This document shows, piece by piece, positions 10,672 to 43,897 of a stretch of DNA of 51,565 bases; positions within the stretch are counted from its first letter, which is position 1; each line of letters starts with the position of its first letter. Origin of the DNA: Thermodesulfobacteriota bacterium (GTDB taxonomy: Bacteria > Desulfobacterota > Desulfobacteria > Desulfobacterales > SURF-7); assembly GCA_049320885.1 (NCBI GenBank), contig JBMORA010000059.1:1-51565 (forward strand), read 5' to 3'. The translations under genes and the position numbers were made by a program. The notes beneath the pieces are model-generated. The model was not told the DNA's origin. It made no database searches and saw only the letters and a program-made list of their open reading frames with translations.

Positions 10672-10701
10672 AATCCGAAACGCTCAGGAGGTCGCCACGC
10701 T

Positions 10702-13653: not shown

Positions 13654-13662
13654 GTATATGGT

Positions 13663-14256: not shown

Positions 14257-14567
14257 ATGAATCTCCTGGTGTCCATCCCTGCGCGTTTCACCACGGCGGC
14301 TCAGGGGTGGCGCATTCAATGTCATGAAATACGAAAGACAGACTTCAGGTTTGGGTGCGAAATAAGCGATAACGGACGAAAGCGCTTTCCAGGCGCGTCT
14401 GCGGTAGTCTCTATCGAACTATGGCTTGGTTGTCAAGCATTGAAAGCCTTTTTGTTGCGCCAGCGCTTGGTTTTTATTGACGAAATGAAGAGGACGGGAG
14501 ATGATGCACCGGCTATCGGGGAAGTGACACCAAAAATACAAGCCGGGAATGCGGGAAGCGTGCTTGA

Positions 14568-16133: not shown

Positions 16134-16209
16134 AAGAATGGCCGGGATGAGGTAGAAGCGTGTTGCCGAATTTCGAAAACCCGAAACACTATAACGAATC
16201 GAGGCAGAC

Positions 16210-16836: not shown

Positions 16837-16845
16837 TAAAATCCT

Positions 16846-22253: not shown

Positions 22254-23276
22254 TCAGCCGCCGATGGCGGACATATGGCCTGCGATGGGCTTGGTCGTCT
22301 CCGGGGTCAGGCCGTGGCCTTGGGGTTTCTTGGCCACGGCCGATAACATCAGTTCCACAAGACGGCTGTCGGTGCATCCAGCCCGCATCGGCTCCTTTAG
22401 ATCCGTCTGCTCATCCGACAGCAGACAGGCCCGGATACGTCCGCTGGCCGTGAGCCTCAGCCGATTGCACGCTTCGCAGAAATGGTTGCTCAGCGGGCTG
22501 ATAAACCCGATTTCTCCCCGGGCGTTCTGAAACCGGTACCGCCGGGCCGGACCGTCGTTTGCGCTGTTGCGAACCGGGGTCAGAGGTCCCAGGGTTTTCT
22601 CCAGTGTTTGCTTGATTTCACCGGCCAACAGCGGAGGATCCGGGTGGATGCCCAGGCCGCCGATGGGCATTTGCTCGATAAAGCGGATATGGAACGGGTA
22701 GGCGAATGACAATTGCCCCAGGCGCGACAACTCGTGATCGTTGATGCCCTTCAGCGCCACCACATTCAGTTTGATGGGGAAGAACCCGGCTTCATGGGCG
22801 GCCAGAATTCCTTCCCAGACCTTTTGAAAAACAGGATGCCCGGTGATGCGATGATACGTGGATGCGTCCAGGGTGTCCAGGCTGACATTGAGCCGCCGAA
22901 CCCCGGCGGTCTTCAGTCTTTCGACATTTTCCTTCAGCAGCAGGCCGTTGGTGGTCAACGCCAGGTCCGTAATTCCGTTGATCGCCGATAATCGGGCAAG
23001 GAATTCATACACTCCCTTGCGCATCAACGGTTCTCCGCCGGTGACGCGGATTTTGGAAATCCCCAGTCCCACGGCGATCCTCACCACGCGCAGGATTTCC
23101 TCGTACCGCAGGATATCCACATGGGTGAGCTTGGGAATCCGGTCGGTGGGCATGCAATACAGGCAATTCAGGTTGCATCGGTCGGTTATGGAAATGCGCA
23201 GGTAGTTAAGTCGCCGGTCGAAACCGTCCACCAGTCCATCCGGTTTCGATATCTTCCGGGATTCGAGGGAATTCAT
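22254..23276 (-). CDS. moaA: GTP 3',8-cyclase (Mo/W cofactor biosynthesis)
   Basis: YLRISITDRCNLNCLYC, TGGEP, FCEACNRLRLTASG..C and C-terminal MSAIGG; the probable start is ATG 23276. Confidence 0.96.
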   Translation of the reverse strand: MNSLESRKISKPDGLVDGFDRRLNYLRISITDRCNLNCLYCMPTDRIPKLTHVDILRYEEILRVVRIAVGLGISKIRVTGGEPLMRKGVYEFLARLSAINGITDLALTTNGLLLKENVERLKTAGVRRLNVSLDTLDASTYHRITGHPVFQKVWEGILAAHEAGFFPIKLNVVALKGINDHELSRLGQLSFAYPFHIRFIEQMPIGGLGIHPDPPLLAGEIKQTLEKTLGPLTPVRNSANDGPARRYRFQNARGEIGFISPLSNHFCEACNRLRLTASGRIRACLLSDEQTDLKEPMRAGCTDSRLVELMLSAVAKKPQGHGLTPETTKPIAGHMSAIGG

Positions 23277-23360
23277 ATCCAGAAAGGCCGCCTGTCCTAA
23301 TTGATATTCATATTCGGGCTCATCGCTCCTGGATAATTCCGATTTTTCAGGAGTAACAGG

Positions 23361-23390
23361 AATGTAACCCAGGAGTTGTCCCCAGGTCAA
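23361..23390 (-). promoter_or_regulatory. Possible sigma70 promoter for moaA
   Basis: Minus strand: TTGACC - 18 nt - TACATT. Confidence 0.35.
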
Positions 23391-23419
23391 TCTTTCTTTC
23401 TGCATCTTTCTTTCTGCAT
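23390..23419. repeat. 14-bp perfect tandem duplication
   Basis: ATCTTTCTTTCTGC x2 plus AT in the moaA-nuoA intergenic region. Confidence 0.9.
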
Positions 23420-23554
23420 ATTTGGATCTTGACATTTGACGTCTGTTTCACTATCAGTGTCCTTTCCGTCGGTTCCGCGGCGCCGGTGTGCCGCCGTTCG
23501 CCAGCGGCCATGGGGAGCCGAGCGGGAAGGTAACCTGCTGTCTAAACAATACTG

Positions 23555-23583
23555 TTGACACCCGGGGAACCTTTGCATATACT
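23555..23583 (+). promoter_or_regulatory. Sigma70 promoter of the nuo-fdh operon
   Basis: TTGACA (23555-23560) - 17 nt - TATACT (23578-23583), about 60 nt upstream of nuoA. Confidence 0.75.
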
Positions 23584-23644: not shown

Positions 23645-23998
23645 ATGAACGAGTATATTCCGGTACTGATGATGATTTTTTTGGCGGCGGCCACGGCTGC
23701 TGGCATGATCGTCGCCACCACGTTGATCGGCCCCAAAAAGAAATTCGCGGACAAGATGGAGCCGTTCGAATGCGGCGAAAGTCAGATCGTGTCCCCCAAA
23801 CAGCGGTTTTCCATTAAATTTTATCTGGTAGCGCTTTTTTTCGTGATCTTCGACATTGAAGCGGTTTTTGTATATCCGTGGGCCGTGCTTTTCAAGGAGC
23901 TGGGGATGTTCGGTTTCATTGAAATGCTGGTGTTCATATCCATACTGGCCGTCGGCCTGATTTACGTCTGGAGAAGGGGAGCGTTGGAATGGGAGTAA
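23645..23998 (+). CDS. nuoA: Complex I subunit A
   Basis: PFECGE, FYLVALFFVIFDIEAVFVYPW and RRGALEWE. Confidence 0.95.
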   Translation: MNEYIPVLMMIFLAAATAAGMIVATTLIGPKKKFADKMEPFECGESQIVSPKQRFSIKFYLVALFFVIFDIEAVFVYPWAVLFKELGMFGFIEMLVFISILAVGLIYVWRRGALEWE

Positions 23999-24558
23999 AA
24001 CGTCAAGGGACCTTGGTTTCTCCGGACCTGCCGGGAAGGATTGCGGATTCCGCCGATCCGATGCGGCTGCTGGGCGATAGCGTCATCATGACCACCGTGC
24101 AGTCCGTGGTGAACTGGAGCAGAAAATATTCCTTTTTTCTCTATCCCTTCGTCACGGCCTGCTGCGGAATGGAGTTCATGTCCGTGGCCGGACCGAGATA
24201 CGATCTTGACAGATTCGGCGCGGCGTTGCCCCGATTTTCTCCAAGACAGGCCGACCTCATGATGGTGGTGGGCACCATCAGCCATAAGCAGGCGCCCATC
24301 CTGGTGAAGGTGTATAATCAGATGGCCGAACCCAAATGGGTTTTCGCCTTCGGCGTCTGCGCCGTATCGGGAGGCTTTTACGACAATTACGCCACGGTTC
24401 AGGGCATTGATACCCTGATACCGGTGGATGTGTATGTCCCGGGGTGTCCGCCGCGTCCGGAAATGGTGATCGACGGCCTGCTGAAACTCCAGGAAAAGGT
24501 CGCGAAGGAAAAATGGTCGGATTGGCCCAAAGGCGCGTCGCCGGTAAGCAAATGCTAA
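23989..24558 (+). CDS. nuoB: Complex I subunit B (N2 cluster)
   Basis: TACCGMEF with tandem Cys, SPRQAD, GVCA and PGCPPRPE; ATGGGAGTAA overlap with nuoA. Confidence 0.95.
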   Translation: MGVKRQGTLVSPDLPGRIADSADPMRLLGDSVIMTTVQSVVNWSRKYSFFLYPFVTACCGMEFMSVAGPRYDLDRFGAALPRFSPRQADLMMVVGTISHKQAPILVKVYNQMAEPKWVFAFGVCAVSGGFYDNYATVQGIDTLIPVDVYVPGCPPRPEMVIDGLLKLQEKVAKEKWSDWPKGASPVSKC

Positions 24559-24592
24559 CAAACCTATTTGAAACCATGTGAAGTGTTCGGTT

Positions 24593-25075
24593 ATGGATGC
24601 CAGCGTGACTCTGAAAAAACTGACAGACCGATTCCCCGAATCGATTCTCGAGACCCATTCCCACCGGGGGGATGACACCGCGATTGTAAGGAAGGAAGAC
24701 ATCCTGAAAATCTGCCTGTTTTTACGGGATGATGAAACCCTGCTTTTCAACTTCATGATGGATCTGACCGCCGTGGATTACATCGGCAGGGAGCCGCGAT
24801 TCGAAGTCGTGTATCATCTCTACTCCCTCCGCCATAATCAGCGGGTGCGGATCAAGGCGGGCGTTCCGGAATCCGATTGCGCCATCGATTCGGTGGTATC
24901 CATATGGCCCGGCGCCAATTGGTTTGAGCGGGAAGCTTTCGATATGTACGGAATCACTTTCAAGGGCCATCCCGAGTTGAGGCGGATTCTCCTGTATGAA
25001 GGATTCGAGGGACATCCCCTGAGAAAAGACTACCCGATAAAGAAACGGCAGCCCCTGATCGGGCCCATCAATTAA
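24593..25075 (+). CDS. nuoC: Complex I subunit C
   Basis: DLTAVDY, RFEVVYHL, ANWFEREAFDMYGI and GHPLRKDYP; start at 24593 or 24578. Confidence 0.95.
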   Translation: MDASVTLKKLTDRFPESILETHSHRGDDTAIVRKEDILKICLFLRDDETLLFNFMMDLTAVDYIGREPRFEVVYHLYSLRHNQRVRIKAGVPESDCAIDSVVSIWPGANWFEREAFDMYGITFKGHPELRRILLYEGFEGHPLRKDYPIKKRQPLIGPIN

Positions 25076-25106
25076 CCCAATACTCCAGTGAGCCATTGTT
25101 TGCGTC

Positions 25107-26297
25107 ATGTCTGATATAACAAAAGATCTTCATACCGAGCACATGGTGATCAACATGGGGCCGTCGCATCCGGTAACCCATGGGACGGTCAAATTTTTAG
25201 CGACCCTGGATGGAGAAACCATCGTGGATTTGAAGGTGGATATCGGGTATCTCCATCGCGGGTTCGAAAAAATGTGCGAAAACGGCACCTGGCAGCAGGT
25301 GATACCGTATACCGACCGGCTGAATTACGTTTCCCCCCTGATCAACAACGTGGGCTATGCCCTGGCCGTGGAAAAACTGATCGGCGTCGAGGCGCCCGAG
25401 CGTTGCCAATACATCCGTGTCATTGCCTGTGAACTTTCCCGCATCTCCGACCATTTCACCAATATCGCCGCGGGCGGCCTGGAACTCGGCGCGTTCACAG
25501 CCTTTCTGTATTTTGTCGAAGCGCGGGAACTTATTTACGACCTGATCGAAATGCTGTGCGGCGCCCGCGTCACCGCCAACTATGTCCGGATCGGCGGACT
25601 GAAGAACGATCTTCCCGGGGACTTCAAGGAAAAAACAGCGGAAGTGTTCAAGATAATTCGCGGTCTATGGGTGGATGTGGACAAGCTGCTGACGAAGAAC
25701 CGGATTTTCATCGACCGGGTCAAAGATGTGGGCCTCATGCCGCCGGATGAGGCCATTGCGCTGGGATTCACCGGCCCCTGTCTCAGGGCCTGCGGGGTGC
25801 CCTATGACGTCCGGAAGGCCCACCCCTACCTGATTTACGACCGCCTGGATTTCGAGGTCCCCATCGGTGAAACAGGCGACAACTATGACAAATACCTGGT
25901 GCGAATGGAAGAGATACAGCAAAGCCTGCGGCTTGTCGAGCAGGCGCTTGATCAGCTTCCCGACGGCCCGATAAACCTGGACATGCCCCAATACAGATGG
26001 CAGTCAAAGGATGATGTCTACAACAGAATCGATTCGTTGATTTTTCATTTCAAGACGGTCATTGAAGGCATCAAGCCGCCTCCGGGGGAAATTTATTCCG
26101 CCGTTGAGGGAGCCAACGGTGAACTCGGGTTTTATCTGGTGAGCGATGGAAGCGGCAAGCCCTACAAGTGCAGGGTGAGACCACCGTGTTTTCCCTTAAC
26201 CGCGGCAATGCCCAGGATGATGAAGGGGCGGCTCATCGCCGATATCGTCCCCACTTTCGACATGATCAACATGATCGGCGGAGAATGCGATAGATAA
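25107..26297 (+). CDS. nuoD: Complex I subunit D (quinone binding)
   Basis: NMGPSHPVTHG, GYLHRGFEK, DRLNY and GECDR; no NiFe-binding CxxC pairs. Confidence 0.95.
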   Translation: MSDITKDLHTEHMVINMGPSHPVTHGTVKFLATLDGETIVDLKVDIGYLHRGFEKMCENGTWQQVIPYTDRLNYVSPLINNVGYALAVEKLIGVEAPERCQYIRVIACELSRISDHFTNIAAGGLELGAFTAFLYFVEARELIYDLIEMLCGARVTANYVRIGGLKNDLPGDFKEKTAEVFKIIRGLWVDVDKLLTKNRIFIDRVKDVGLMPPDEAIALGFTGPCLRACGVPYDVRKAHPYLIYDRLDFEVPIGETGDNYDKYLVRMEEIQQSLRLVEQALDQLPDGPINLDMPQYRWQSKDDVYNRIDSLIFHFKTVIEGIKPPPGEIYSAVEGANGELGFYLVSDGSGKPYKCRVRPPCFPLTAAMPRMMKGRLIADIVPTFDMINMIGGECDR

Positions 26298-26299
26298 CC

Positions 26300-27370
26300 A
26301 TGCTTGCAGATCTCATCGAGTCCGTAGCAAAAATTGTATTTATTTTCGGCGTGAATATTGGATTTTTCGCCCCGGTGCTGGGATGGGTGGAAAGAAAACA
26401 AAGCGCGGTGATGCAGGACCGGATCGGCGCCAACCGGGCTGATATCCTCGGGTTCACCGTCATCGGCCTGTTTCACTCCATTGCCGACGCCGTCAAGGTT
26501 CTCACCAAGGAAGATTTTATTCCCAGCGGCGCCAATAAAGTCTTCCATACCATGGCGCCTTTCATCAGCCTGGTGCCCGCCATCGTGACCTTCACCGTCA
26601 TCCCGTTCGGCGGGCGGTACACCCTGTTCGGCCATGACGTCAACTTGGTCATCGCCGATCTGGATGTGGGCATCCTGTTCATCTTCGCTTTTTCCTCCCT
26701 GGCCACCTACGGCGCGGTCCTCGGTGGATGGTCCTCCAACAACAACTGGTCCTTGCTGGGTGGATTGCGGGCCTCGGCCCAGATGCTTTCCTACGAAGTG
26801 GCCATGGGACTCACCATCATCGGCGTCCTCATGGTGTATGGTTCGTTGAAACTAACCGAGATCGGCGCCATGCAGGAGAATTTTTTCCGCTGGGGGATAT
26901 TCATGCAGCCGGTGGGGTTCATCCTCTTTCTGACCTGCGCCATCGCCGAAAACAAGCGGGCGCCGTTCGATGTCCCCGAGGCGGAGTCCGAGCTCGTGGC
27001 CGGTTATTTCACCGAATACAGCGGCATGAAATTCGTCATGTTCTGGATGGGTGAATTCCTGGAGATCGTGACCATCAGCGGTATCGTGACCACCCTGTTT
27101 TTCGGGGCCTGGCATCTGCCCTTCGTCAGCGACCGGATGCTGCTGTCCTACTTCCAGTTCGCGGGCCCCAACGGGGCCGGGGTGCTGGCGATGCTCGTCA
27201 ACATCGCCGTGTTCTTTGCAAAGGTCATTTTCTTCATATGGCTGCAGATGACGGTGCGCTGGACCCTGCCGCGTTTCCGATATGATCAGGTCATGAAATT
27301 GTGCTGGAAGATGATTCTGCCGATTTCACTCATCAATATTATCATTACCGGGCTGGTTCTTTTGATATGA
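26300..27370 (+). CDS. nuoH: Complex I subunit H
   Basis: ERK..A.MQDRIG, AQMLSYE, RAPFDVPEAESELVAGYFTEYSG and PRFRYDQ. Confidence 0.96.
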   Translation: MLADLIESVAKIVFIFGVNIGFFAPVLGWVERKQSAVMQDRIGANRADILGFTVIGLFHSIADAVKVLTKEDFIPSGANKVFHTMAPFISLVPAIVTFTVIPFGGRYTLFGHDVNLVIADLDVGILFIFAFSSLATYGAVLGGWSSNNNWSLLGGLRASAQMLSYEVAMGLTIIGVLMVYGSLKLTEIGAMQENFFRWGIFMQPVGFILFLTCAIAENKRAPFDVPEAESELVAGYFTEYSGMKFVMFWMGEFLEIVTISGIVTTLFFGAWHLPFVSDRMLLSYFQFAGPNGAGVLAMLVNIAVFFAKVIFFIWLQMTVRWTLPRFRYDQVMKLCWKMILPISLINIIITGLVLLI

Positions 27371-27990
27371 ATAAAACGACGGTTCCACAGCAAGCCAAAT
27401 GTCATCCCATGGTGGGCGTCCCGACGGAAAAGTTGAGACCCAAACAGGTGAGGAAAAACCTGGATCTTACCTTGTGGGAAAGACTCTACATTTTCGAGAT
27501 CATCCGGGGCATGTACATCACGACCCGGCATTTTGCCGTCAACATGTTCGGATTCATCATCCCGCCGAAAGGCCGGAAGAGAAAAATCTTCACGGTTTAC
27601 TATCCGGAAGAGAAGGTGACGCTTCCTCCCGCATATCGGGGCAGGCCCGTCCTGGTTGCCTGGAAGAATGGCAGGGAAAAATGCGTCGCCTGTGGATTGT
27701 GCGAAAAAATCTGTCCGGCGGGCGCCATCACCATCGTCGCCGAGGAGAGAGACAGCGGGGATCGATATCCGGCAAGCTATACCTTGGATATGGCCCGGTG
27801 CGTGTATTGCGGTTATTGCGAGGAAGTCTGCCCGAAGGAAGCCATTGTCATGAGTGCTGAATATCAGGGGCTGGCCGAGAGGGACAGGCGGAACATGAAA
27901 TACGCCAAAGAACAACTGCTACGGTCCGAGGAAAGCGTGAAAGCCCGTATCGAATACATCAGGAGGATTTACTCCAAATGCACTTATTGA
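27367..27990 (+). CDS. nuoI: Complex I subunit I (2x[4Fe-4S])
   Basis: YPEEK, CVACGLCEKICP and CVYCGYCEEVCP; ATGA overlap with nuoH. Confidence 0.95.
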   Translation: MNKTTVPQQAKCHPMVGVPTEKLRPKQVRKNLDLTLWERLYIFEIIRGMYITTRHFAVNMFGFIIPPKGRKRKIFTVYYPEEKVTLPPAYRGRPVLVAWKNGREKCVACGLCEKICPAGAITIVAEERDSGDRYPASYTLDMARCVYCGYCEEVCPKEAIVMSAEYQGLAERDRRNMKYAKEQLLRSEESVKARIEYIRRIYSKCTY

Positions 27991-28511
27991 TGTTCTATAT
28001 ACTCGGTTTCGGCGCCGTTGTATCGGCGCTACTGATGGTGACCAACCGGAAGCCGGTATCGGCGGCCATGAGCTTGATCGCCGTCATGGTTTTTCTTGCC
28101 GGATTGTATGTGCTGCTGGATGCGCACCTGATCGCCGCTCTGCAGCTCATCGTATATGCCGGGGCCATCATGGTTCTCTTCCTTTTCGTAATCATGCTGC
28201 TGAATGTGGAGGAAAAGGAAGGGCGTCTTGCGGGGAATGCCATTCTGATGCAATTCGGGGCAATCGCGGCTGTCGGTTTTCTTCTCATAATGATGGTAAG
28301 TTATGTAAAGACGGGAGCGCCTCTGCCCGCCATCGGTGAAGGGATGGATCAATTCGGTACCACCAAGGCTGTCGGGAGAATGCTGTTCACCGAATACCTC
28401 TTGCCTTTTGAAATAGCCTCCGTGTTGTTGCTGGCGGCGATCGTCGGCGCCGTCATTCTGGCCAAAAGGAATATTGATGATCCGGAACAGGGAACACGCC
28501 ATTCCCGGTGA
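27978..28511 (+). CDS. nuoJ: Complex I subunit J
   Basis: QLIVYAGAIMVLFLFVIMLL and YLLPFEIASVLLLAAIVGA. Confidence 0.95.
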   Translation: MHLLMFYILGFGAVVSALLMVTNRKPVSAAMSLIAVMVFLAGLYVLLDAHLIAALQLIVYAGAIMVLFLFVIMLLNVEEKEGRLAGNAILMQFGAIAAVGFLLIMMVSYVKTGAPLPAIGEGMDQFGTTKAVGRMLFTEYLLPFEIASVLLLAAIVGAVILAKRNIDDPEQGTRHSR

Positions 28512-28524
28512 TGAAGGGTAACCT

Positions 28525-28827
28525 ATGGTTTCATTGAATTCATATCTGATATTGGGTGCGATACTTTTTTCCATCGGCGCGGTGGGGGTGTTCACGCAAC
28601 GAAATGCCTTGATCATCTATATGTGCATTGAGTTGATGCTGAATTCCGTGAATCTGACCATCATCGCATTCTCACGTTTTTTGAACAATATGGACGGTCA
28701 CGTGTTCGTGTTCATGATCATGACGGTCGCCGCGGCCGAAGCTGCCGTGGGATTGGCCATCATCATCTCCATGTTCCGGAACAAAGCGACCGTTAACGTG
28801 GACGACATTCATTTAAGTAAGGGTTAG
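28525..28827 (+). CDS. nuoK: Complex I subunit K
   Basis: [12 protein letters not shown] and [12 protein letters not shown]. Confidence 0.95.
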
Positions 28828-28834
28828 TGAAAAC

Positions 28835-30331
28835 GTGCAAACGATTATATCCATAAAGCCATTGCTTGCTGTGCTGGCGTCTCTTCTCGCGGTGCCGCTG
28901 ATTGTCAAGACGGGAGATCGGCCCAATCTTCGGGAATCCTGGTCCATCATCGCCGGGATCATCAAGTTTTCCATCGTGGTCTCCATGGTCCCCGCCATCC
29001 TTGCTGGAAACACCATCGAATATACCCTGGTGACTTTTTATCAGGGGATCGATATCAAGTTCCGGGTGGATGCCCTCGGGCTGCTGTTTGCGACGGTTTC
29101 TTCCTTCCTGTGGATCGTCACCACCTTTTATTCCATCGGGTATATGCGGAGCGGAAACGAACACGCCCAGACGCGATTCTTCACCTGCTTCGCCATCAGT
29201 CTGTCATCCACCGTGGCGGTGGCATTTTCCGCCAACCTGATCACCCTCTTCGTTTTTTATGAATTTTTGAGCCTCGCCACCGTGCCCCTGGTGGGACACA
29301 AGGAAACACCCGAAGCCTATGCCGGGGCACGAAAGTATCTGCTCTACCTGCTGAGCCTGTCAAAGACCCTGCTGCTGTCCGGTATCATCATCGTCTATAT
29401 GGTGGCGGGCACCACGGATTTCCAGAGCCACGGGCTCCTGCAAAACCAGCAGGGATCGACGCTGTTGTTCATCGGATTCTTCCTGTTTCTGTTCGGCTTT
29501 GCCAAAGGCGGGGTCATGCCGGTGCACAACTGGCTGCCGTCGGCCATGGTGGCGCCCACCCCCGTCAGCGCCTTGCTCCATGCCGTCGCCGTTGTGAAGG
29601 TGGGGGTTTTCTCGATCCTCCGGGTGGTGTTCCACATTTATGGTGTGGACCTGATGGGGCGTATGAATCTGGGCATCACCGCCGCATATGTCGTTTCGTT
29701 CACCATTCTGACGGGCTCCATTATCGCTCTCTCCAAGGACAACTTGAAGGCCAGGCTGGCTTACTCCACCGTCAGCCAGTTGTCGTACGTCATTCTTGGC
29801 GCCGTTCTGCTGACGTCGTGCAGCATGCTGGGCGGCATCATGCACATCGCCAATCATGCGTTCTCCAAAATCACCCTGTTCTTTTGCGCCGGCTCCTTGT
29901 ATTGCAGCGCCCACAAAACCGAGATCAGTCAGCTGTCCGGCATCGGTAAAAAAATGCCCTGGACGATGGCGGCTTTTTTCATCGGTTCGCTGAGCATGAT
30001 CGGCGTGCCCCCGGCGGCCGGATTCAACAGTAAATGGTATCTGGCCCTGGGTTCCATCGAGGCTGATCAGATACCCATTCTGCTGGCCCTGCTGGCCAGC
30101 ACCGTACTCAACGCCGCTTATTTTTTACCCATTACTTACAAGGCTTTTTTCGAAAAGGCGGAAGAACCGGCGCCTTCTTCCCATGGTCATCACGATCACC
30201 ACGACCATCATGAAGAAATCCGGGAGAACCCCATGATCGTGGTGCCATTGGTGTTGACGGCGCTCATATCTCTGCTGATCGGAATATATCCCGATTATTT
30301 CTTGAGGCTCGCACAGGAGGTGATCCGATGA
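28835..30331 (+). CDS. Additional antiporter-like subunit, MrpD/MnhD-family (Proton_antipo_M)
   Basis: FVFYE, AKGGVMPVHNWLPSAMVAPTPVSALLHAVAVVKVG, RLAYSTVSQL, HAFSKITLF and SKW; 498 aa with no lateral-helix tail; GTG start. Confidence 0.88.
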   Translation: MQTIISIKPLLAVLASLLAVPLIVKTGDRPNLRESWSIIAGIIKFSIVVSMVPAILAGNTIEYTLVTFYQGIDIKFRVDALGLLFATVSSFLWIVTTFYSIGYMRSGNEHAQTRFFTCFAISLSSTVAVAFSANLITLFVFYEFLSLATVPLVGHKETPEAYAGARKYLLYLLSLSKTLLLSGIIIVYMVAGTTDFQSHGLLQNQQGSTLLFIGFFLFLFGFAKGGVMPVHNWLPSAMVAPTPVSALLHAVAVVKVGVFSILRVVFHIYGVDLMGRMNLGITAAYVVSFTILTGSIIALSKDNLKARLAYSTVSQLSYVILGAVLLTSCSMLGGIMHIANHAFSKITLFFCAGSLYCSAHKTEISQLSGIGKKMPWTMAAFFIGSLSMIGVPPAAGFNSKWYLALGSIEADQIPILLALLASTVLNAAYFLPITYKAFFEKAEEPAPSSHGHHDHHDHHEEIRENPMIVVPLVLTALISLLIGIYPDYFLRLAQEVIR

Positions 30332-30585
30332 TCAAGAAAATCGTTCTATATATCGGAAACCCGAAAAATTCGAACATATTGAAGAAGGTGAGTTATGTCG
30401 CCCTGGTGCTGGTGGTGATTGCCGACTTTTTCGTTCACCGCGCACACGCCATTTATATTTGGGATAAAATACCCGGCTGGGGAGCATTTTACGGATTTGT
30501 TTCCTGCGTTGTTATCATTCTGGTCTCCAAATTTCTTGGACACCAGGGTGGCATCATGCATGACGAGGATTATTACGATGACTGA
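30328..30585 (+). CDS. Small two-TM membrane protein
   Basis: 85 aa with two hydrophobic segments and acidic C-terminus EDYYDD; AGGAGG RBS; overlaps both neighbouring genes. Confidence 0.8.
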   Translation: MIKKIVLYIGNPKNSNILKKVSYVALVLVVIADFFVHRAHAIYIWDKIPGWGAFYGFVSCVVIILVSKFLGHQGGIMHDEDYYDD

Positions 30586-32350
30586 TTGGTTGCACCCGTC
30601 CCTTGTATTCATCGCCGGATCGGTTCTGATTCCTTTCCTGAGGGGGAAAGTCCGGGACGCCTACCTGATGCTGATCCCCCTTCTTGGAGTGGCCTCGGTT
30701 TACTACATGACCCCGGGAACGTATTGGACCTATACCTTCCTCGGCACTCCGCTGACCTTCGGCGCGGTGGACAAGCTCAGCATTGTTTTCGGCTGGGTTT
30801 TCACCATAGCGAGTTTCATCAGCATCGTCTACGCCCTGCATGTGAAGGAACCGGGGCAACACATGGCCGCCTTCATCTATGTGGGCGGGTCCTTGGGCGT
30901 CACCTTCGCCGGCGATTTTTTCACCCTGTTCGTCTTCTGGGAGCTGATGGCCTTTTCTTCCGCCTACCTGGTTTTCGCAAGGCGCGAAAAAACCGCCCTG
31001 GAAGCCGGATACCGGTATATCCTGGTGCATATTTTCGGCGGCGTCTGCCTCTTGGGCGGCATCATCCTCCACTATATGAAGACCAAATCCATCGGGGTCG
31101 GCCCCATTGATCAGGACGGCAGCCTCTCTTTCTACCTGATCCTGGCGGGAGTCATGCTGAATGCTGCGGTGCCGCCGCTGCACGCCTGGCTGACGGACGC
31201 TTATCCCGAGGGAACCGTCACCGGCTCGGTGTTCATGTCGGCCTTCACCACCAAAACCGCGGTGTATCTGTTGGTGCGTGTGTTTCCGGGCACCGACCTG
31301 CTCATGTACCTCGGAACCATCATGGCCCTGTATGGAGTCGTCTACGCGGTGCTGGAAAACGACTGCAGAAGGCTGCTGGCCTATCACATCATCAGTCAGG
31401 TCGGGTATATGGTGGCGGGTGTCGGTATCGGGACGGATATGTCCCTGAACGGCTCGGTGTCCCACGCCTTCGCCCATATTCTCTATAAGGGCCTTCTGTT
31501 CATGGGCGCCGGCGCAGTTATCCAAATGACCGGCCGCCGGAAACTGACGGAACTCGGTGGCCTGTACAGGACGATGCCCATCACCCTTGTACTTTACATG
31601 ATCGGAGGCTTCGCCATTTCGGCTTTCCCCCTGTTCAGTGGGTTTGTCACCAAATCCATGGTGGTGGCGGGAGCCGCCCACGATCATCGGCCCGCGGTGG
31701 CCCTCTTGCTGACCATGGCCTCGGCGGGAACTTTTCTGCATACGGGTCTCAAGCTGCCGTATTACATGTTTTTCGGCAAGGATTCCGGATTAGAGGCCAA
31801 GGAACCGCCACTGAACATGCTGATCGCCATGGGTTTCGCCGCCTTCCTGTGCATCGGCATCGGCGTGCTTCCGGGACCGCTTTACGACCTCCTTCCCTAT
31901 CCGGTCCATTTCGAACCGTATACGGGCGACCATGTGACCAGCGCACTGGGGATTCTGTTGTTCACTGGTTTGGGATTCTTCATGCTGCTCAAGAAACTGG
32001 ATCCGGAACCCACCATCAGTGTCGACACGGATTGGGTGTACCGCAAGGGCAGCCGCCTGTTCATGTGGTTCGTCAACAAACCGCTGACAATATATGAGAG
32101 CTACCTGGCGGAAATCTACGAGACCTGGTTTTCCAGACTCACCTTGGTTCTCTCGAGTTTCTTCGCACGTGTTATCGATGTTCGGGGCATAGATGGAATC
32201 GTAAACGGCGTCGCCGGGTTTTTCATCGGCCTTGCCGGCACCTTGCGGGTATCGGCCACCGGCATGGTGCGGAATTACGCGGTTACAATGCTGATCGGCG
32301 GTGCCGCCATCATCGCTTATTACCTGTTGGCCTATTTGATGAGACAATAA
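30578..32350 (+). CDS. Mrp-type (Na+/H+ antiporter subunit D-like) subunit with a NuoL-type C-terminal lateral helix; NuoL equivalent
   Basis: [23 protein letters not shown] and [13 protein letters not shown]; NuoL-like tail [12 protein letters not shown]...[16 protein letters not shown]; start ATG 30578. Confidence 0.88.
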
Positions 32351-33843
32351 TGATTTCGCCAAATTTTCCGATTCTTTCCGTCATTACGTATCTGCCGTTG
32401 CTGGGAATTCTGGTGATCTGCCTGATCAACAGCAAACACCATGATTTGATCCGCTGGGTGGCTTTTATAACCGCCGTTGTGGCCTTCGTCGTATCCCTGC
32501 CCCTCTATTTCCTGTTCGATTCGACCAAATGGCAGATGCAATTCGTCGAAAAAGTTCCCTGGGTGGCTCAATTCGGGATCCAGTATCATATGGGAATAGA
32601 CGGCATCAGTTTACTCCTCATCCTTCTCACCACGTTTCTCTCGGCGCTCGCCATTCTGTCCACCTGGACGGCGGTCACGAAAGGGGTTAAAGGATACATG
32701 GTTTCCCTGCTGCTGCTGGAAACCGGAATGATCGGGGTGTTCTGCGCCCTGGATTTCATCCTTTTCTACATCTTCTGGGAAGTGATGCTGATTCCCATGT
32801 ATTTCATCATCGGGATTTGGGGCGGCCCCCGCAGGATCTACGCCGCGGTGAAGTTCTTCATTTACACCATGAGCGGCAGCGTCCTGATGCTGGTGGCGAT
32901 TCTTTTCCTTTATTTCATGAATTATAAAGCCACCGGTGCATATTCCTTCGATATCTTGTCGTATTACAATCTTGGAATCACGCCGGGCATCCAAATCTGG
33001 CTTTTCCTGGCGTTTTTTCTGGCGTTCGCCATCAAAGTCCCCATGTTTCCCTTTCATACCTGGCTTCCGGATGCCCATGTGGAGGCGCCCACCGCCGGCA
33101 GCGTTATCCTGGCGGGGGTTCTGCTGAAGATGGGTACATACGGATTTCTGCGCTTCAGTCTGCCGATTTTCCCCCAGGCCAGTATGGATTTCGCACCCAT
33201 CATTCTGGGCCTGTCGGTGATCGGGATCATATACGGCGCCATGGTGTCCATTGCCCAGGAAGATATCAAAAAACTGGTGGCCTACTCGAGCGTCAGCCAT
33301 CTCGGCTACTGCATGCTGGGAATGTTCGCCCTGAACATGGAAGGAGTCAAGGGCAGCATCATTCAGATGATCAACCATGGGTTGAGTACGGGCGCACTGT
33401 TTATGATCGTCGGGATGCTGTATGAACGGCGGCATACCCGGTTAATTTCGGAATACGGCGGCATCATGAAGGTCATGCCTGTTTTTGCCGGGCTTTTCCT
33501 GCTGGTCGCATTTTCTTCCATGGGGGTTCCCGGATTGAACGGTTTTGTCGGGGAATTGCTGATCCTTATCGGAGCGTTTAAGGCCTCCGTCGGCTATGGG
33601 TTGCTTGCGACCATGGGACTCGTTCTGGGCGCCGTTTACCTTCTGTGGATGTACAAGCGGGTCATGTACGGCGAGATCACCAAGGAAGAAAACAAACACT
33701 TGAAGGACATGACCGGCCGGGAATACGCGTATCTGATTCCCATCATCATTTTCATCGTCTGGATCGGCGTATATCCGAAACCGTTTTTGGATAAAATGGA
33801 CGCATCCGTGCAGCATCTCCTGCAGGTGGTAAAACCGCAATGA
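32350..33843 (+). CDS. nuoM: Complex I subunit M
   Basis: [47 protein letters not shown] and GFVGE. Confidence 0.96.
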
Positions 33844-33937
33844 TCCGGATGGAAGCGACGGGGACAGGACTTCGGCCCACGAATTTTAACAATTGACGTA
33901 ACATGAACCGGTTGCCTCGGACCAAAGGCGATAGATT

Positions 33938-35416
33938 ATGGAACAGGTAATGACGACAATCAAGGTTAGCGCCCTGCATCCCGAAATTATTTTGGCGCTT
34001 TTTTCATTGATCATTCTGCTGCTGCAATCCTTTTATGGCGCCCGCTCCAGAAATTATTACGGCTATGTGAGCCTTGTCGGCGTCCTGGCGTCCGCGGTGG
34101 TGGTCGTTTTAGAGCCCGCCGGCTTTGGGATGAGATTGCTGGAGTATTCTTTTAACGGGATGTGGGTGGTGGACAACTACTCCCGATTTTTCAAACTGAT
34201 ATTCCTTCTGGGTACCGGACTCACCATCCTCATTTCGATCAAATATCTCGAAAATGAGGCCATGCAGCACGGCGAATACTTCGCCTTGATCCTGTTTGCC
34301 ACCATCGGCATGATGATCATGGCCAGCGGAGCCGAATTGATCACCATTTTTCTAGGGATTGAGCTGATGTCCCTGTCGCTTTATGCCCTGGCCGGATACA
34401 CCCGGACGCGGATGGTTTCCAACGAGTCGGCCCTGAAATATTTTCTGCTGGGTTCCTTTGCAACCGGCTTTTTGTTGTACGGCATCGCCCTGCTGTATGG
34501 CGCCACCGGCACGACGGAAATCAGGGGGATTGCCGGAGCCATCGCTTCAAAGGGTTTTCAGGGTACCTATGCCATTCTTGCAGGCATGGCGCTCCTGCTC
34601 ATCGGGTTCGGCTTTAAAACGGCCGCGGTTCCCTTTCACATGTGGACGCCGGACGTATACGAGGGCGCGCCGGCACCCGTGACCGCCTTTATGTCCGCGG
34701 GTCCCAAGGCCGCCGCTTTCGCGGCGTTTGTGCGGATATTTCTGGAGGCGTTTTCCAACCTCCAGGGAGAATGGACGGTGATCATCTGGGTGATGGCGGT
34801 GCTGACCATGAGCATCGGAAATATCATCGCCCTGGTCCAGGACAACATCAAACGCATGCTGGCCTATTCCAGTATCGCTCACGCCGGATATATTCTAGTC
34901 GCCTTCCTGGCCGGCGGGGAACTCGGCATCACCGGGATCCTGTATTACCTGCTGACCTATACTTTCATGAATATCGGTGCCTTCGCATTGATCACGATCC
35001 TGGGCGGCAAAGGAGAGCAACGGGTCCGTGTTCTGGATTACAGGGGCCTCGGATACAGGCATCCCTATGCCGCCGTTGCCATGAGCCTGTTTCTCTTTTC
35101 CCTGGCGGGGATTCCTCCCACCGGTGGTTTCATCGGTAAATTTTACATTTTTTCCGCGGCGGTCAAGGAAGGTTATATCGCTCTCACCATTATCGGCGTG
35201 CTCAACAGCGTCGTCTCCGTCTACTACTATTTGCGCGTAACCGTGGCGATGTATATGCAGGACCCCGATACGGCGGATGCGGAAATTCCCGCAACGGTTT
35301 TTTCGCCCGCTCTCGTTGTGGCGATTCTAATTTCGGCATGCGGCGTGCTGTCGCTGGGAATATATCCCTCCGGCTATGCCGAAATCGTAAGGCAGTCCTT
35401 TTTAATGCTGAATTAG
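33938..35416 (+). CDS. nuoN: Complex I subunit N
   Basis: ESALKYFLLG, FKTAAVPFHMWTPDVYEGAP, KRMLAYSSIAH, GFIGKF and SVYYYLR. Confidence 0.96.
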   Translation: MEQVMTTIKVSALHPEIILALFSLIILLLQSFYGARSRNYYGYVSLVGVLASAVVVVLEPAGFGMRLLEYSFNGMWVVDNYSRFFKLIFLLGTGLTILISIKYLENEAMQHGEYFALILFATIGMMIMASGAELITIFLGIELMSLSLYALAGYTRTRMVSNESALKYFLLGSFATGFLLYGIALLYGATGTTEIRGIAGAIASKGFQGTYAILAGMALLLIGFGFKTAAVPFHMWTPDVYEGAPAPVTAFMSAGPKAAAFAAFVRIFLEAFSNLQGEWTVIIWVMAVLTMSIGNIIALVQDNIKRMLAYSSIAHAGYILVAFLAGGELGITGILYYLLTYTFMNIGAFALITILGGKGEQRVRVLDYRGLGYRHPYAAVAMSLFLFSLAGIPPTGGFIGKFYIFSAAVKEGYIALTIIGVLNSVVSVYYYLRVTVAMYMQDPDTADAEIPATVFSPALVVAILISACGVLSLGIYPSGYAEIVRQSFLMLN

Positions 35417-35513
35417 GTAGACAATCAGGGCATGATAACCATGCAGCACAGATTTCGAATCCGATATGTTTAAATAAGCATATTTTTTCTGTCAGGGAAG
35501 AAGGAAGGCATGT

Positions 35514-38183
35514 ATGACGAAGGTCAGGTTAACAATTGACGGCAAGGAAGTCATCACCGAAAGCAACAAGACCATCCTCCAGGCAGCCGAGAGCGCCGGG
35601 GTTCGAATCCCGACTCTCTGTTACCATGAACGTCTGAATCCCATCGGATCCTGCCGATTGTGCGTCGTCGAGATCGATGGTATGGAGGAACCGGTGACGG
35701 CTTGCGAAACTTCCGTCCGGGAGGGTATGTCGGTGATAACCCAATCCGACCGGTTGTACCGCATGCGGCAGGCTTCCCTGAAGCTCATCCTGGCCCACCA
35801 TCCCCTGGATTGCCCCATCTGCGATAAAGCCGGCGAATGCATGCTGCAGGACCTGGTATTCGAATACGGCATTCGTATAACAGATTACAAGGCCCCGGAA
35901 AAACCGCGTGAGTCGGTGTATGCGACGCCGTTGATCAAATACTGGCCCGACAGATGCGTCTTGTGCCTGCGGTGTGTTGCCGCCTGCCGTGAAATCAAGG
36001 GCGCCTGCGCGCTGGATGTCGCCAAAGCCGACGGAAAAGCGAGCCTCGTTTTCCATCCGGACCGTTGTGTCTCCTGCGGGGAATGCCTGCAACTTTGCCC
36101 GGTGGGAGCGTTGACCGAAAATGTCAGCCGGATAAAATCCAGATCGTTCATCGCGAAAAAAGTACCCACCACCTGCACATACTGCGGCTGCGGCTGCCAA
36201 ATGGAACTCCATGTTCTCGACAACCAGGTCGCCAACGTGACCGGTCTGAACGTCACAGGCGTGAACCAGGCCAGTTTGTGCGTGAAAGGACGTTTCGGCT
36301 ATGAATTCATCGCCAGTGACCAGCGCCTGACAAGGCCCCTGATCAAACGGAACGGCAAGTTCGAGGAGGCTGGATGGGATGAGGCCCTGGGGCTGGTGGC
36401 GAAAAAATTTGAACAGATCAAGAAGCAAAGCGGGCCGAATGCCATCGGCGGCTTCGCCTCGGCCCGCTGTACCAACGAAGACAATTATCTGTTTCAGAAA
36501 TTCATGCGCGCGGTGATCGGCACCAACAATGTCGACCACTGTGCCCGTCTCTGACATTCCTCGACGGTGGCCGGGCTGGCCGCCACGTTCGGAAGCGGTG
36601 CCATGACCAACCCCCTGAAGGATGTGCTGAAGTCAAAGGTCATCCTGGTGACCGGAACCAATACCACGGCCAACCATCCGATCATTGCCAACTATATCCA
36701 CGAAGCCGTGACTAAAAACGGGGCGAAACTGATCGTGGTGGACCCGCGCCGGATCAAACTGGTGGATATCTGCCATCTCTGGTTGCGTCCGAAAGTCGGC
36801 ACCAATGTAGCCTGGATCAATGGATTGATGAACGTCATCATCACCGAAGGGCTCCAGGATCAGGCGTTCATCGAAGGACGCACCACCGGGTATGAGGAAC
36901 TGAAACAAGTCGTGGCAAAATACACGCCGGACTATGTGGCCGGCATTACGGGTATCCCGGCAGCGGATCTCGCGGCCGCCGCCCGTCTGTATGCGACCGA
37001 AAGACCCGGTTCCATTCTCTACGCCATGGGTATCACCCAGCACACCAGCGGAACAAACAACGTAAAATGCCTTGCGTCCCTCGCGATGATCTGCGGCAAT
37101 GTCGGCGTTGAGGGCGGCGGCGTTAATCCGCTCCGGGGTCAAAACAACGTCCAGGGCGCCTGTGACATGGGCGGCCTGCCCAATGTGTTCACCGGGTATC
37201 AGGGTGTAACCGATGCCGCTGTGCGGGAAAAATTCGCCAAAGCCTGGAACGTGCCAGCGCTTGCCGAAAAGGCCGGTTTGACCGTCACCGAAATGACCGC
37301 TATGGACGGTCCGATCAAGGCCCTGTATATCATGGGTGAAAATCCCATGCTGAGCGAAGCCGACGTCCATCACGTGGAGAAAAAGTTGACGTCCCTGGAA
37401 TTTCTGGTGGTTCAGGACATTTTCCTAACGGAAACCGCCAAGCTTGCCGACGTCGTTCTACCGAGCGCCTGCTTCGCGGAAAAAGACGGAACCTTCACCA
37501 ACACCGAACGTAAGGTCCTTCGGGTGCGCAAGGCGGTGGATGCACCGGGGGAGGCATTGGAAGACCATCGGATCATTGCGGGGATCGCCGCCAAAATGGG
37601 GTATGCCATGGAATATCCGGATGCCTCCGCCATTATGGACGAGATCAATCGGGTCACCCCGAGTTACGGCGGTATCACGTTCCGGCGGCTGGAAACGGAA
37701 GACCTGACCTGGCCCTGTCCCACCAAGGACCATCCGGGCACCCCCGTTCTTCATAGCCAGCGATTTACCAGGGGGGAAGGGGTTTTCTTCCCCATTGAAT
37801 ACCAGCCCTCCGCCGAACTGCCGGATGGCGACTACCCGTTTGTCCTGACGACAGGGCGCGTGCACGCGCACTACCACACCGGCACCATGACGCGCAAGGG
37901 AAGCGCCCTGAATCGCATCTATCCGGAAGCCATGGCGGAGATCAATGCAGAGGATGCGAAGGCGCTGCAAGTCGCCGATGGCGAATACGTCCATATCGTT
38001 TCCAGACGGGGGTCCCTGCGGATAAAAGCGCAGGTTTCCGAAATGACGGATCATGGGGTTGTTTTCGTGCCCTTCCATTTTTTCGAATCGGCGGTGAACC
38101 AGTTGACCAACAGCGCTCTCGATCCGGTTTCGAAAATTCCGGAACTCAAGATCTGCGCCGTAAAAATCGAGAAGGCGGCATAG
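35514..38183 (+). CDS. fdhF: Selenocysteine-containing formate dehydrogenase alpha subunit (Mo/W-bisPGD) with a NuoG-like Fe-S N-terminus, 889 aa
   Basis: ORFs 35514-36554 and 36567-38183 are in the same frame and joined by TGA 36552-36554, reading NVDHCARL-U-HSSTVAGL. Fe-S motifs: IPTLC..GSCRLC..TAC, HPLDCPICDKAGEC, two CxxCxxCxxxC and CTYCGCGC..LCVKG. The catalytic-region motif RGQNNVQG is present. No Tat signal. Confidence 0.95.
36555..36594 (+). promoter_or_regulatory. Bacterial SECIS element (in-CDS mRNA hairpin)
   Basis: Stem GGTGGCC (36566-36572) / GGCCGCC (36578-36584) with a G-rich loop GGGCT, starting 11 nt after the UGA; a possible lower pairing TTCC/GGAA. Confidence 0.8.
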
Positions 38184-38216
38184 CAAGAAAACAGATCGCC
38201 AATATACGCAGGCTGG

Positions 38217-38252
38217 GGCCGGCCGGATATCACCATATCCGGCCGGCCTTTT
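38217..38252 (+). terminator. Rho-independent terminator of the nuo-fdh operon
   Basis: Perfect 14-bp stem GGCCGGCCGGATAT-cacc-ATATCCGGCCGGCC followed by TTTTGTTT, between convergent genes. Confidence 0.88.
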
Positions 38253-38257
38253 GTTTG

Positions 38258-39601
38258 TCAGGGGTGATCTCCCACCCGGATGGTGCCCTTGACCCATTCC
38301 AGGGTCACCCTGGCTACCAGATAGTCGCGATAGGCCTTGGCCAGATTGTTCTTGGCCCGCAGCAGATTCAACTGGGCGTCCTGGACGTCGAGGTGGGTCT
38401 TGACACCCAGCTGATAGCCCTGTTCCGCCATGCTCAATAATTTTTCGGCCTGGGCCACGGTACCGGAAAGGGCTTTGGCGATTTCACCGGCTTCCTGGAT
38501 GGCATCCACTGCATTGCGCACCTCCAGCGCGATGCCGTCGCGGGTTTTGGCTTCCTCGATCCGGAGAGAGGCCCCGTCGCTCTTGGCCTGGGCCACCTTA
38601 CCGCGGGAACGCAGACCGTCAAAAATGGGATAGGTGATCTGCAGCCCGGCGCGCCATTCGAGGCCGTCCGGATCCGTGGCTTCGTCGTAGTATTTCTTCC
38701 AGCCCAGATTACCCAGCAAGTCGAGCCGCGGTTTATCGCCGGCATCGTAAATCAACACCAGCTCCTGATTGATGTTGTTCCGGTGCCGCAGCTCGGAAAG
38801 CTCCGGACGGTGATCCAGGGCGCATTCCAGGGCTTCCTCATACGGGGGGTAAACGTCGATAACCGTGTCCAGGGAACCTTCGACATCCAGGTTCTCGATG
38901 TCCTCGGCCAATAGAAAACGCAGCTTTTCCGTGGCGGTTTTGATCATGTTTTCCCTGCGGATGACGAGGGGCTGGGCGTTTTCATAGTCCACCCGGGCCA
39001 CCAATTCGTCGTAATCCGTGGCTGTCCCGGCCGCGCGTTTATGCGCGGCCTCGTTCATGTGTCGTTTCTTGAGTTCGAGGTTTTCCTTGGCCAAAAGGGT
39101 CATCACCTTGGCCAGCAGCAGATCATAGAAAGCCTGGGATACATCCCGGGCCACGGCCTGACGGAAATAATCCAGCTGGTCATCGGCGACTTTCCGGTAA
39201 ATATCGGCGGCCCGGATGGCCGCGCCCACCTGACCCCAGGTGAATAACGCCTGGGATAATCCGACCCCGGCGGTGACGGCGTCCTGTTGAACCGGGTACA
39301 TACTGATGGGGTAGTCATTCTGGCTTTCATCCCGTTGCCGGAAGAGACCGGAAGTGACGGTCACCTGGGGCAGGGCCGCCGAGCGCTGCTCCACATAATA
39401 TCCTTCCACCCAGTTGCGGTACTCCATGGCTTTCTGGATATTCCGGTTTTTACCGTCGGCAATGGCCAGGGCCTGATCCAGACGCAGGGTTCTGGATCGG
39501 GCAACGCCGGGCGGAAAAGCGAGAATCGACATCAGGATCAGAAAGGCTTTGATGAAAAAAGGCAGCGAACGGGAACAGACCCGTTTGTCTCCGTGGTTCA
39601 T
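38258..39601 (-). CDS. TolC family outer membrane efflux protein
   Basis: Signal peptide, QRSAALPQV, ITYPIFDG and YQLGVKTHLDVQDAQ; last gene of the RND operon. Confidence 0.9.
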   Translation of the reverse strand: MNHGDKRVCSRSLPFFIKAFLILMSILAFPPGVARSRTLRLDQALAIADGKNRNIQKAMEYRNWVEGYYVEQRSAALPQVTVTSGLFRQRDESQNDYPISMYPVQQDAVTAGVGLSQALFTWGQVGAAIRAADIYRKVADDQLDYFRQAVARDVSQAFYDLLLAKVMTLLAKENLELKKRHMNEAAHKRAAGTATDYDELVARVDYENAQPLVIRRENMIKTATEKLRFLLAEDIENLDVEGSLDTVIDVYPPYEEALECALDHRPELSELRHRNNINQELVLIYDAGDKPRLDLLGNLGWKKYYDEATDPDGLEWRAGLQITYPIFDGLRSRGKVAQAKSDGASLRIEEAKTRDGIALEVRNAVDAIQEAGEIAKALSGTVAQAEKLLSMAEQGYQLGVKTHLDVQDAQLNLLRAKNNLAKAYRDYLVARVTLEWVKGTIRVGDHP

Positions 39602-42600: not shown

Positions 42601-42702
42601 GATGGCCAGCCGGCGATAGGAAAAAAAACCCAGGGTGACCAGGGCCAGCATCATGACAGCGGCGGTGACCGGCCGCTTGACGGACAGATCGGATAGCAAC
42701 AT
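39598..42702 (-). CDS. RND efflux permease, AcrB/AcrD/AcrF family
   Basis: 1034 aa; [32 protein letters not shown] and RLRPIMMTT. Confidence 0.96.
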
Positions 42703-42706
42703 GGGG

Positions 42707-43822: not shown

Positions 43823-43897
43823 GATTGTTTCTCCCACCCGGTATATCCGGAATCAGAAAAATGAAGTTGCGGGCGACGGCGACCCCCGGGATTGCCG

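What the first reader, a model, noticed from the sequence alone, without database searches (positions are those of the whole stretch)
32030..32263. The lateral amphipathic helix of the NuoL equivalent is about 26 residues longer, roughly one extra antiporter subunit
Seen: after the last core TM the protein reads DWVY-(22 aa)-[34 protein letters not shown]...[12 protein letters not shown]. The DxxY-like motif that begins the NuoL lateral helix appears twice, 26 residues apart (codons at 32030 and 32108). DWVY to the Gly before the last TM spans 78 aa; AEIY to the same Gly spans 52 aa. From memory, the canonical NuoL span is about 48-53 aa. Established: an alpha helix rises 1.5 A per residue, so 26 aa is about 39 A. 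Complex I variants with an extra NuoM ('2M' complexes, Chadwick et al. 2018, ISME J) have insertions in this helix. Inference: all four antiporter-like subunits assemble into one elongated arm, possibly moving a fifth ion per turnover. Here the extra subunit appears to come from Mrp-type genes rather than a nuoM duplication.
Basis: partly seen in the sequence, partly recalled or inferred. Interest (0 to 1): 0.82.

Follow-up and report, generated by a model that had tools for sequence, protein, structure and literature searches.

The report
Spliced strap helix spans fourth pump
This respiratory gene cluster has the already described "green complex I" layout with four pump-like subunits instead of three, and its strap helix is about 26 residues longer than usual, likely because an antiporter gene was spliced onto a complex I tail so that the strap would reach across the extra subunit; whether a fifth ion is pumped is untested.

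Summary
DWVY (32030) and AEIY (32108) lie 26 codons apart. An AlphaFold model gives one 74-residue helix from DWVY, and superposition on solved NuoL chains gives a net extension of 24-27 residues.

The gene set (nuoA-K, MrpD-like D1, 85-aa protein, MrpD-like D2, nuoM, nuoN) is the published rhizobial "green complex I" membrane arm. This scan has noted it on other DNA many times.

Added here:
(1) D2 is a chimera: an Mrp-type core plus 26 helix residues, joined to a whole NuoL tail.
(2) The span steps by about 26: 47-53 in 33 canonical NuoL, 75-77 in 98 of 102 nuo-linked D2, and 102 in 4 (one shown five-subunit, one four-subunit exception).
(3) Cores moved repeatedly between Mrp and nuo operons (at least 5 changes).
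(4) A selenocysteine formate dehydrogenase gene follows nuoN, and there is no nuoEF.

Against the reading: 32 of 50 three-subunit Mrp tails are as long in residues, though unrelated and proline-broken. D2 also lacks the TM7 lysine (Asn in 155 of 156), so a fifth ion is uncertain.

The parts
23555..23583 (+). sigma-70-like promoter match upstream of nuoA (TTGACA-17-TATACT, 11 of 12)
   Evidence: best of 12 matches, and 11.9 matches are expected by chance in the region, so pattern-level only
23645..23998 (+). nuoA (likely ATG at 23645)
   Evidence: NCBIfam match starts at residue 31 of the ORF
23989..24558 (+). nuoB
24578..25075 (+). nuoC
25107..26297 (+). nuoD
   Evidence: TIGR01962 over cut-off
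26300..27370 (+). nuoH
27301..27990 (+). nuoI (true start probably about 27367)
27978..28511 (+). nuoJ
28525..28827 (+). nuoK
28835..30331 (+). D1: 498-aa MrpD-family antiporter-like subunit with no lateral helix; keeps E143, K224, H249, K255, K400
   Evidence: NF006236/PRK08375, 723 bits, over cut-off; each residue in 145-147 of 148
30328..30585 (+). x: conserved 85-aa small membrane protein between D1 and D2, no Pfam or NCBIfam family
30578..32350 (+). D2: 590-aa helix-bearing antiporter-like subunit that replaces NuoL; Mrp-type core with a NuoL-type tail
   Evidence: NF009310/PRK12668, 753 bits, over cut-off
31028..31030 (+). D2 His151 (TM6; aligns with E. coli NuoL T174), a candidate stand-in for the lost lysine
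   Evidence: (155 of 156); role inferred
31160..31162 (+). D2 Asn195 at the TM7 lysine position (E. coli NuoL K229, NuoM K234, NuoN K217)
   Evidence: (Asn in 155 of 156)
32030..32107 (+). first 26 residues of the lateral helix (DWVY segment), Mrp-D2 type
   Evidence: 28 bits to the Mrp-D2 tail profile, 0.3 bits to a NuoL TM15-to-end profile
32108..32347 (+). complete NuoL-type tail: AEIY (= DExY), IDG motif, TG, TM16
   Evidence: 66.7 bits, gapless, to the canonical NuoL tail profile; 1.7 bits to the Mrp-D2 tail profile
32350..33843 (+). nuoM (TM12 Glu402)
33938..35416 (+). nuoN
35514..38183 (+). formate dehydrogenase alpha with a NuoG-like Fe-S N-terminus; in-frame TGA at 36552-36554 in the motif DHCARL*H, likely selenocysteine
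   Evidence: TGA in 6 of 6 loci with the motif; two tRNA-Sec calls in the genome; selA
38215..38250 (+). terminator-like hairpin after the FDH gene (16 pairs)
   Evidence: pattern-level

Best explanation
The cluster encodes a green-type complex I arm with four antiporter-like subunits, and D2's lateral helix is about 26 residues longer than NuoL's, likely because an Mrp D2 core was recombined onto a whole NuoL tail, so that the helix would run from a distal D2 across D1, NuoM and NuoN. Shown: gene content, lengths, the mosaic of sequence types, and the link between tail type and operon type. Predicted: one continuous helix that starts where NuoL's DxxY sits. Inferred: the order N-M-D1-D2, with TM16 docking at the usual NuoN/J/K site. 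Also inferred: the adjacent selenocysteine formate dehydrogenase is the electron input (no nuoEF in the operon), making a formate:menaquinone oxidoreductase in a dsrA-bearing host. I put about 0.8 on four-subunit assembly with D2 distal, and about 0.45 on five ions per two electrons.
For: Span ladder: 47-53 in 33 canonical NuoL; 75-77 in 98 of 102 nuo-linked D2 and 102 in the other 4. Of those 4, L051 joins contig C180 by an 83-base overlap to give D1-D2-M-M-N, five subunits. L123 is a Manganitrophaceae MAG, a group that PMC9040806 reports to have five subunits and a 26-aa insert; its contig ends after M. 92 of 102 nuo loci show D1, D2, M and N, and 0 of 102 carry a canonical nuoL in the fetched stretch. 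Chimera: the distal tail scores 20 bits or more to a NuoL tail profile in 98 of 98 and to an Mrp-D2 tail profile in 0 of 98. The first 26 residues score 20 bits or more to Mrp-D2 in 66 of 98 and to NuoL in 0 of 98. The window core scores 764 against 118 bits. A tree of cores needs at least 5 switches between Mrp and nuo context, and one nuo clade is rejected (p-AU 1.7e-43 on 40 of 156 rows), yet 0 of 50 Mrp tails reach 20 bits on the NuoL tail profile. The closest Mrp relative (L119, 74% identical, three subunits) has a 77-residue tail, inside the canonical NuoL range of 69-85, against 106 here. Structure. D2-D1 co-fold gave weak support only: score 0.51, best control 0.00, runs agree in at least 56% of contacts, partner pLDDT at least 72. 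The mark was reached by 116 of 157 solved and 2 of 215 mismatched pairs, but at 0.60 or under by only 18 solved and both mismatches. It may reflect likeness to solved NuoL-NuoM or MrpA-MrpD pairs, and no contacts were given.
Against: 32 of 50 Mrp D2 tails are 98 residues or longer although 48 of 49 Mrp loci show three subunits, so residue count alone is not a ruler. These tails are non-homologous, have a proline at offset 40-48 in 47 of 50 (0 of 102 nuo), and the one modelled breaks after 41 residues. L034 has the 102 span with a complete four-subunit operon and no fifth partner among the 6 PF00361 matches of its 95%-complete genome. PMC9040806 also reports such inserts in NuoL of complexes without extra subunits. 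D2 lacks the TM7 lysine, which PMC7419157 calls absolutely conserved and essential, and has no acid after the TM12 lysine, where NuoL has D400. Tail pLDDT is 56-76, and the sequence excess from TM15 is only 13-17. FDH coupling rests on gene adjacency alone.
Confidence: 0.72

Rival explanations
1. All four subunits assemble in one arm, but D2 is a cap or relay rather than a full pump. D1 is then the functional NuoL equivalent and the stoichiometry stays at about four ions, or one site carries Na+.
For: D2 has Asn for the TM7 lysine in 155 of 156 and no acid after the TM12 lysine. D1 keeps Glu, Lys, a NuoL/MrpA-like TM8 His and the TM12 Lys. The lysine is described as essential in PMC7419157.
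Against: D2 keeps E122, K226, H296, K359 and an invariant TM6 His151 in 153-156 of 156, which argues for a working proton path. The same D2 type serves in stand-alone Mrp operons.
Confidence: 0.35
2. D1 sits at the distal tip beyond D2 (order N-M-D2-D1), and the extra helix residues bulge out or bind the 85-aa protein.
For: D1 has the NuoL/MrpA-type TM8 His and a PF00662 match. The sequence excess from TM15 is only 13-17. The co-fold gave no contacts, so orientation is untested.
Against: The span is fixed at 75-77 in 98 of 102 across many phyla and steps by 26 with a fifth subunit. Two models place the DW-Y motif at the NuoL DxxY site. No nuo tail has a proline at offset 40-48.
Confidence: 0.12
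3. The length is a neutral by-product of where Mrp and nuoL recombined, and D1 joins only some assemblies or a separate antiporter.
For: L034 has a longer helix without a fifth gene. Mrp tails tolerate 70-147 residues.
Against: Independent context switches end at the same 75-77 span. This genome gave no tblastn match to MrpE, MrpB or MrpC queries, so no separate Mrp host was found. D1-x-D2 stay together in the loci long enough to show them.
Confidence: 0.08

Closest known systems
[quoted passage not shown]
   Same: Same J-K-D1-x-D2-M-N block, no nuoL, D2 64% identical, same tail class (102 against 106 residues to the end), same Asn at TM7.
   Different: Gene order A-K first. No nuoEF or standard nuoG in the operon; a selenocysteine formate dehydrogenase gene follows nuoN. 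The host carries dsrA.
2M complex I (Chadwick et al. 2018, PMC6194058; not held, known from passages in PMC9040806, PMC7117926 and PMC7419157)
   Same: Four antiporter-like subunits and a helix longer by about 26 residues.
   Different: 2M has a true NuoL with an insertion and a duplicated NuoM. Here there is one NuoM, and NuoL is replaced by two Mrp-derived subunits plus an 85-aa protein; the extension comes from a splice.
Manganitrophaceae Complex_I_3 (Yu et al. 2022, PMC9040806)
   Same: Same D1 and D2 families (L123 D2 62% identical).
   Different: Five subunits and a further 26 residues (span 102), which looks like a tandem repeat of the IDG module (7-10 of 26 identical; no null computed).
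Three-subunit Mrp operons mrpEFGBBC-D0-D1-x-D2 ('group 3'; label recalled and used in earlier scan notes)
   Same: Same D1-x-D2 module and core residues; L119 D2 is 74% identical.
   Different: No redox module; the tail is not NuoL-like, varies from 70 to 147 residues and is proline-broken.

Membership tests
green complex I | [quoted passage not shown] | tested here: met
green complex I | one NuoM and one NuoN with nuoA-D, H-K | tested here: met
green complex I | D2 orthologous to rhizobial MrpD2, same helix length class | tested here: met
   64-66% identity; one starred clade with the rhizobial rows
green complex I | NADH input module nuoEFG and rhizobial gene order in the operon | tested here: not met
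   The window has Sec-FDH and no nuoEF; nuoEF homologues lie on other contigs. Whether the original paper makes this defining could not be read, so membership is claimed for the membrane arm only.
2M complex I | second nuoM | tested here: not met
   one NuoM; D1 best matches PRK08375
2M complex I | about 26-aa longer lateral helix | tested here: met
2M complex I | helix-bearing subunit is a canonical NuoL | tested here: not met
   TIGR01974 146 bits against cut-off 407; core 764 (Mrp-D2) against 118 (NuoL) bits
four-pump complex I (any) | five ions per two electrons | not testable with these tools
   no measurement found in the searches
antiporter-like proton pump subunit (D2) | GluTM5, LysTM8, LysTM12 | tested here: met
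   E122, K226, K359
antiporter-like proton pump subunit (D2) | LysTM7 | tested here: not met
   Asn195, 155 of 156
stand-alone Mrp antiporter | mrpE, F, G, B, C genes | tested here: not met
   none in the operon; MrpE, B and C queries gave no tblastn match in the genome

The most novel reading that the evidence does not exclude
A selenocysteine formate:menaquinone oxidoreductase with four working pump subunits that moves five ions per two electrons, enough to run menaquinol-to-formate in reverse at about 140-150 mV. Its lateral helix is a modular 26-residue ruler (about 51, 77, 102 residues for 3, 4, 5 subunits), rebuilt several times by swapping tails between Mrp and nuoL genes, and its distal subunit pumps with a His/Asn pair in place of the textbook TM7 lysine.
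Probability: 0.3. Interest if true: 0.72.

Novelty: new member of a known kind. Interest (0 to 1): 0.42.

Why it matters
No proton count or structure for a four-subunit complex I turned up in the searches. The fixed length ladder and the repeated tail swaps are a natural experiment on what the lateral helix does: it behaves as a strap whose reach is set by subunit number. The formate-linked version gives an assay with a large driving force. With recalled midpoint potentials (-430 mV formate, -74 mV menaquinone) it supports 4.75-5.1 charges at 150-140 mV, against 3.3-3.5 for NADH, so a fifth ion could be used or detected there. A culturable homologue exists in S. meliloti. The layout itself is not new.

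Tried and rejected
Chadwick et al. 2018 is not held, so I cannot say whether it already measures the green-type helix; what I say of it comes from citing papers. [quoted passage not shown] Searches returned nothing; others gave listings only, none of which showed the chimera, the TM7 Asn or an FDH-linked green complex in title or abstract start. The supplements of PMC9040806 held as text did not contain the helix alignment; its Fig. S2 is a figure and could bear on novelty.

Rejected: tandem duplication of DWVY/AEIY; a transmembrane extra segment (19-residue hydropathy at most 0.5 over the DWVY-to-AEIY segment, with a high helical moment; helix in the model); D1 as a second NuoM; a single origin of nuo-linked cores. 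L046's apparent fifth subunit is a frameshifted nuoM.

My regex for the Mrp DxxY-to-Gly span mis-anchored several rows, and the IDG regex was loose, so I use total tail length and profile scores instead. No RNA holder was listed. The Atlas search gave only unnamed clusters for the 85-aa protein.

Full report
What is there. The + strand from 23645 to 38183 encodes nuoA, B, C, D, H, I, J, K, a 498-aa antiporter-like protein (D1, PRK08375), an 85-aa protein of no family (x), a 590-aa antiporter-like protein (D2, PRK12668, likely start 30578), nuoM, nuoN and a formate dehydrogenase alpha chain with a NuoG-like Fe-S N-terminus. The FDH frame has an in-frame TGA in DHCARL*H. It is TGA in all 6 loci that carry the motif, and the genome has two tRNA-Sec calls and selA. 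A promoter-like site precedes nuoA and a strong hairpin follows fdh, both pattern matches only. The genome has dsrA and a separate canonical nuo operon with a normal NuoL.

Checking the observation. D485 (32030), A511 (32108) and G562 (32261) give 26, 77 and 51 steps. In 33 canonical NuoL the DxxY-to-Gly span is 47-53. That set is E. coli, the genome's own, one Manganitrophaceae MAG and the 30 loci returned of 53 TIGR01974 matches; I did not check subunit number for those 30. AlphaFold2 on a 41-row alignment gives one helix at 486-559 between TM15 and TM16, with mean pLDDT 86.9 but 56-76 in the tail. Structural alignment at about 3 A pairs model residue 506 with E. coli 560 and 507 with mycobacterial 572. 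Against the Gly positions this is 27 and about 24 extra residues, or 36-40 A at 1.5 A per residue. A second model repeats the register. Counted from TM15 by sequence the excess is 13-17, so the anchor matters.

It is a known layout. [quoted passage not shown] S. meliloti pSymA carries the same J-K-D1-x-D2-M-N block with D2 64% identical. PMC7415380 and PMC5419562 (passages) treat it as hypothetical or as a trait. PMC7117926 (passages) describes 2M complexes. PMC7784846 (passages) mentions group 3 Mrp with extra MrpD-like genes. Earlier notes of this scan reach the same filing on other genomes, including the chimera and the TM7 Asn.

Comparative test. I fetched 78 stretches from the phylum search and the own genome, 2 plasmid records and 80 loci from GTDB genomes (queried with a nuo-type alignment, so biased to that type). 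I kept 156 closed D2 frames over 500 aa and at least 38% identical, the window's included. Context was set by neighbouring genes alone: 103 nuo, 50 Mrp, 3 unassigned. Dropping one frameshifted tail, the nuo span is 75-77 in 98 of 102 and 102 in 4. L051 is five-subunit once two contigs overlapping by 83 bases are read together. L123 belongs to the family reported as five-subunit, but its contig ends. L148 is too short to tell. L034 has four subunits and is an exception. Mrp tails run from 70 to 147 residues; 8 of 50 are 80 or shorter, like NuoL (69-85), and 32 of 50 are 98 or longer. The long ones are unrelated in sequence, 47 of 50 Mrp tails have a proline at offset 40-48, and the one modelled breaks after 41 residues into short helices.

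How the extension arose. From offset 23 onward the nuo tails match a canonical NuoL tail profile (98 of 98 at 20 bits or more; window 66.7, gapless) and not the Mrp-D2 profile (0 of 98). The first 26 residues and the core match Mrp-D2 and not NuoL. So AEIY is NuoL's DExY, and DWVY is the Mrp motif that occupies the same site on the core; keeping both adds 26 residues. A tree of the cores without tails needs at least 5 context changes (156 rows). On 40 rows chosen to keep the mixed clades, the mixture model also needs 5 and rejects one nuo clade. Long branches are present, the tree has no root, and counts cannot give direction. The two same-genus genomes have D2 at only 45% and 53% identity while two other-genus genomes have 91%, which suggests lateral spread of this operon.

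How it most likely works. Electrons from formate would pass through the Fe-S chain to NuoI/B/D and reduce menaquinone, or the reverse (inferred from adjacency; 5 of the closest named relatives keep the full fdh gene after nuoN). The arm is likely N-M-D1-D2, with D2's helix crossing three partners to anchor TM16 at the usual site. The D2-D1 co-fold gives weak support only (0.51 against 0.00; it may be memory of solved pairs). D1 keeps all textbook charged residues. D2 keeps Glu122, Lys226 and Lys359, but has Asn at the TM7 lysine and Ser after the TM12 lysine; an invariant TM6 His may substitute. PMC7419157 (passages) calls that lysine essential. With recalled potentials, five charges fit formate/menaquinone at 140-150 mV. 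I rate assembly at about 0.8 and a fifth ion at about 0.45.

Verdict. I did not find them in the papers searched, but the two primary papers could not be read. Interest 0.42.

Noticed in passing
window 35514-38183: Formate dehydrogenase read through an in-frame TGA (36552), followed by a predicted hairpin (-17.7 kcal/mol over 47 nt, no shuffle control). Gene callers will split it in two.
   Followed up: partly
window 22254-23435 (-): moaA is divergent from the nuo cluster, fitting a molybdo/tungsto-pterin enzyme in the operon.
   Followed up: no
window 30328-30585: The 85-aa protein x is kept between D1 and D2 in both Mrp and nuo operons; no family in Pfam, NCBIfam or named Atlas clusters.
   Followed up: partly
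L034 (G064:C17:27303-46928): Span of 102 with only four antiporter-like genes in a complete operon; no fifth partner found in the genome.
   Followed up: partly
L051 + L244 (G120:C136 and C180): Five-subunit nuo operon (E F G H I J K D1 x D2 M M N), revealed by an 83-base contig overlap.
   Followed up: partly
L119 (JBBTFC010000072.1): An Mrp operon whose D2 core nests among nuo-linked cores, with a 77-residue tail: a possible return from complex I to Mrp with the helix shortened.
   Followed up: partly
L090 (G027:C22): Mrp operon with two D2 genes in tandem (four antiporter-like subunits).
   Followed up: no
L106 (G016:C1:2052134-2071801): Another run of four antiporter-like genes, only about 30% identical to D1, D2, M and N; type not determined.
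   Followed up: no
L095, L100: nuo operons with the order J K M N D1 x D2 but the same 76-residue span.
   Followed up: no
G000:C46 about 14400-17100 and C39 about 9600-16000: A second FDH-like gene (48-56% identical) and a hydrogenase-4/Ehr-like cluster elsewhere in the genome.
   Followed up: no
window 38258-44518 (-): TetR-family regulator, RND adaptor, RND permease and TolC-family gene: an ordinary efflux operon converging on the fdh terminator.
   Followed up: no
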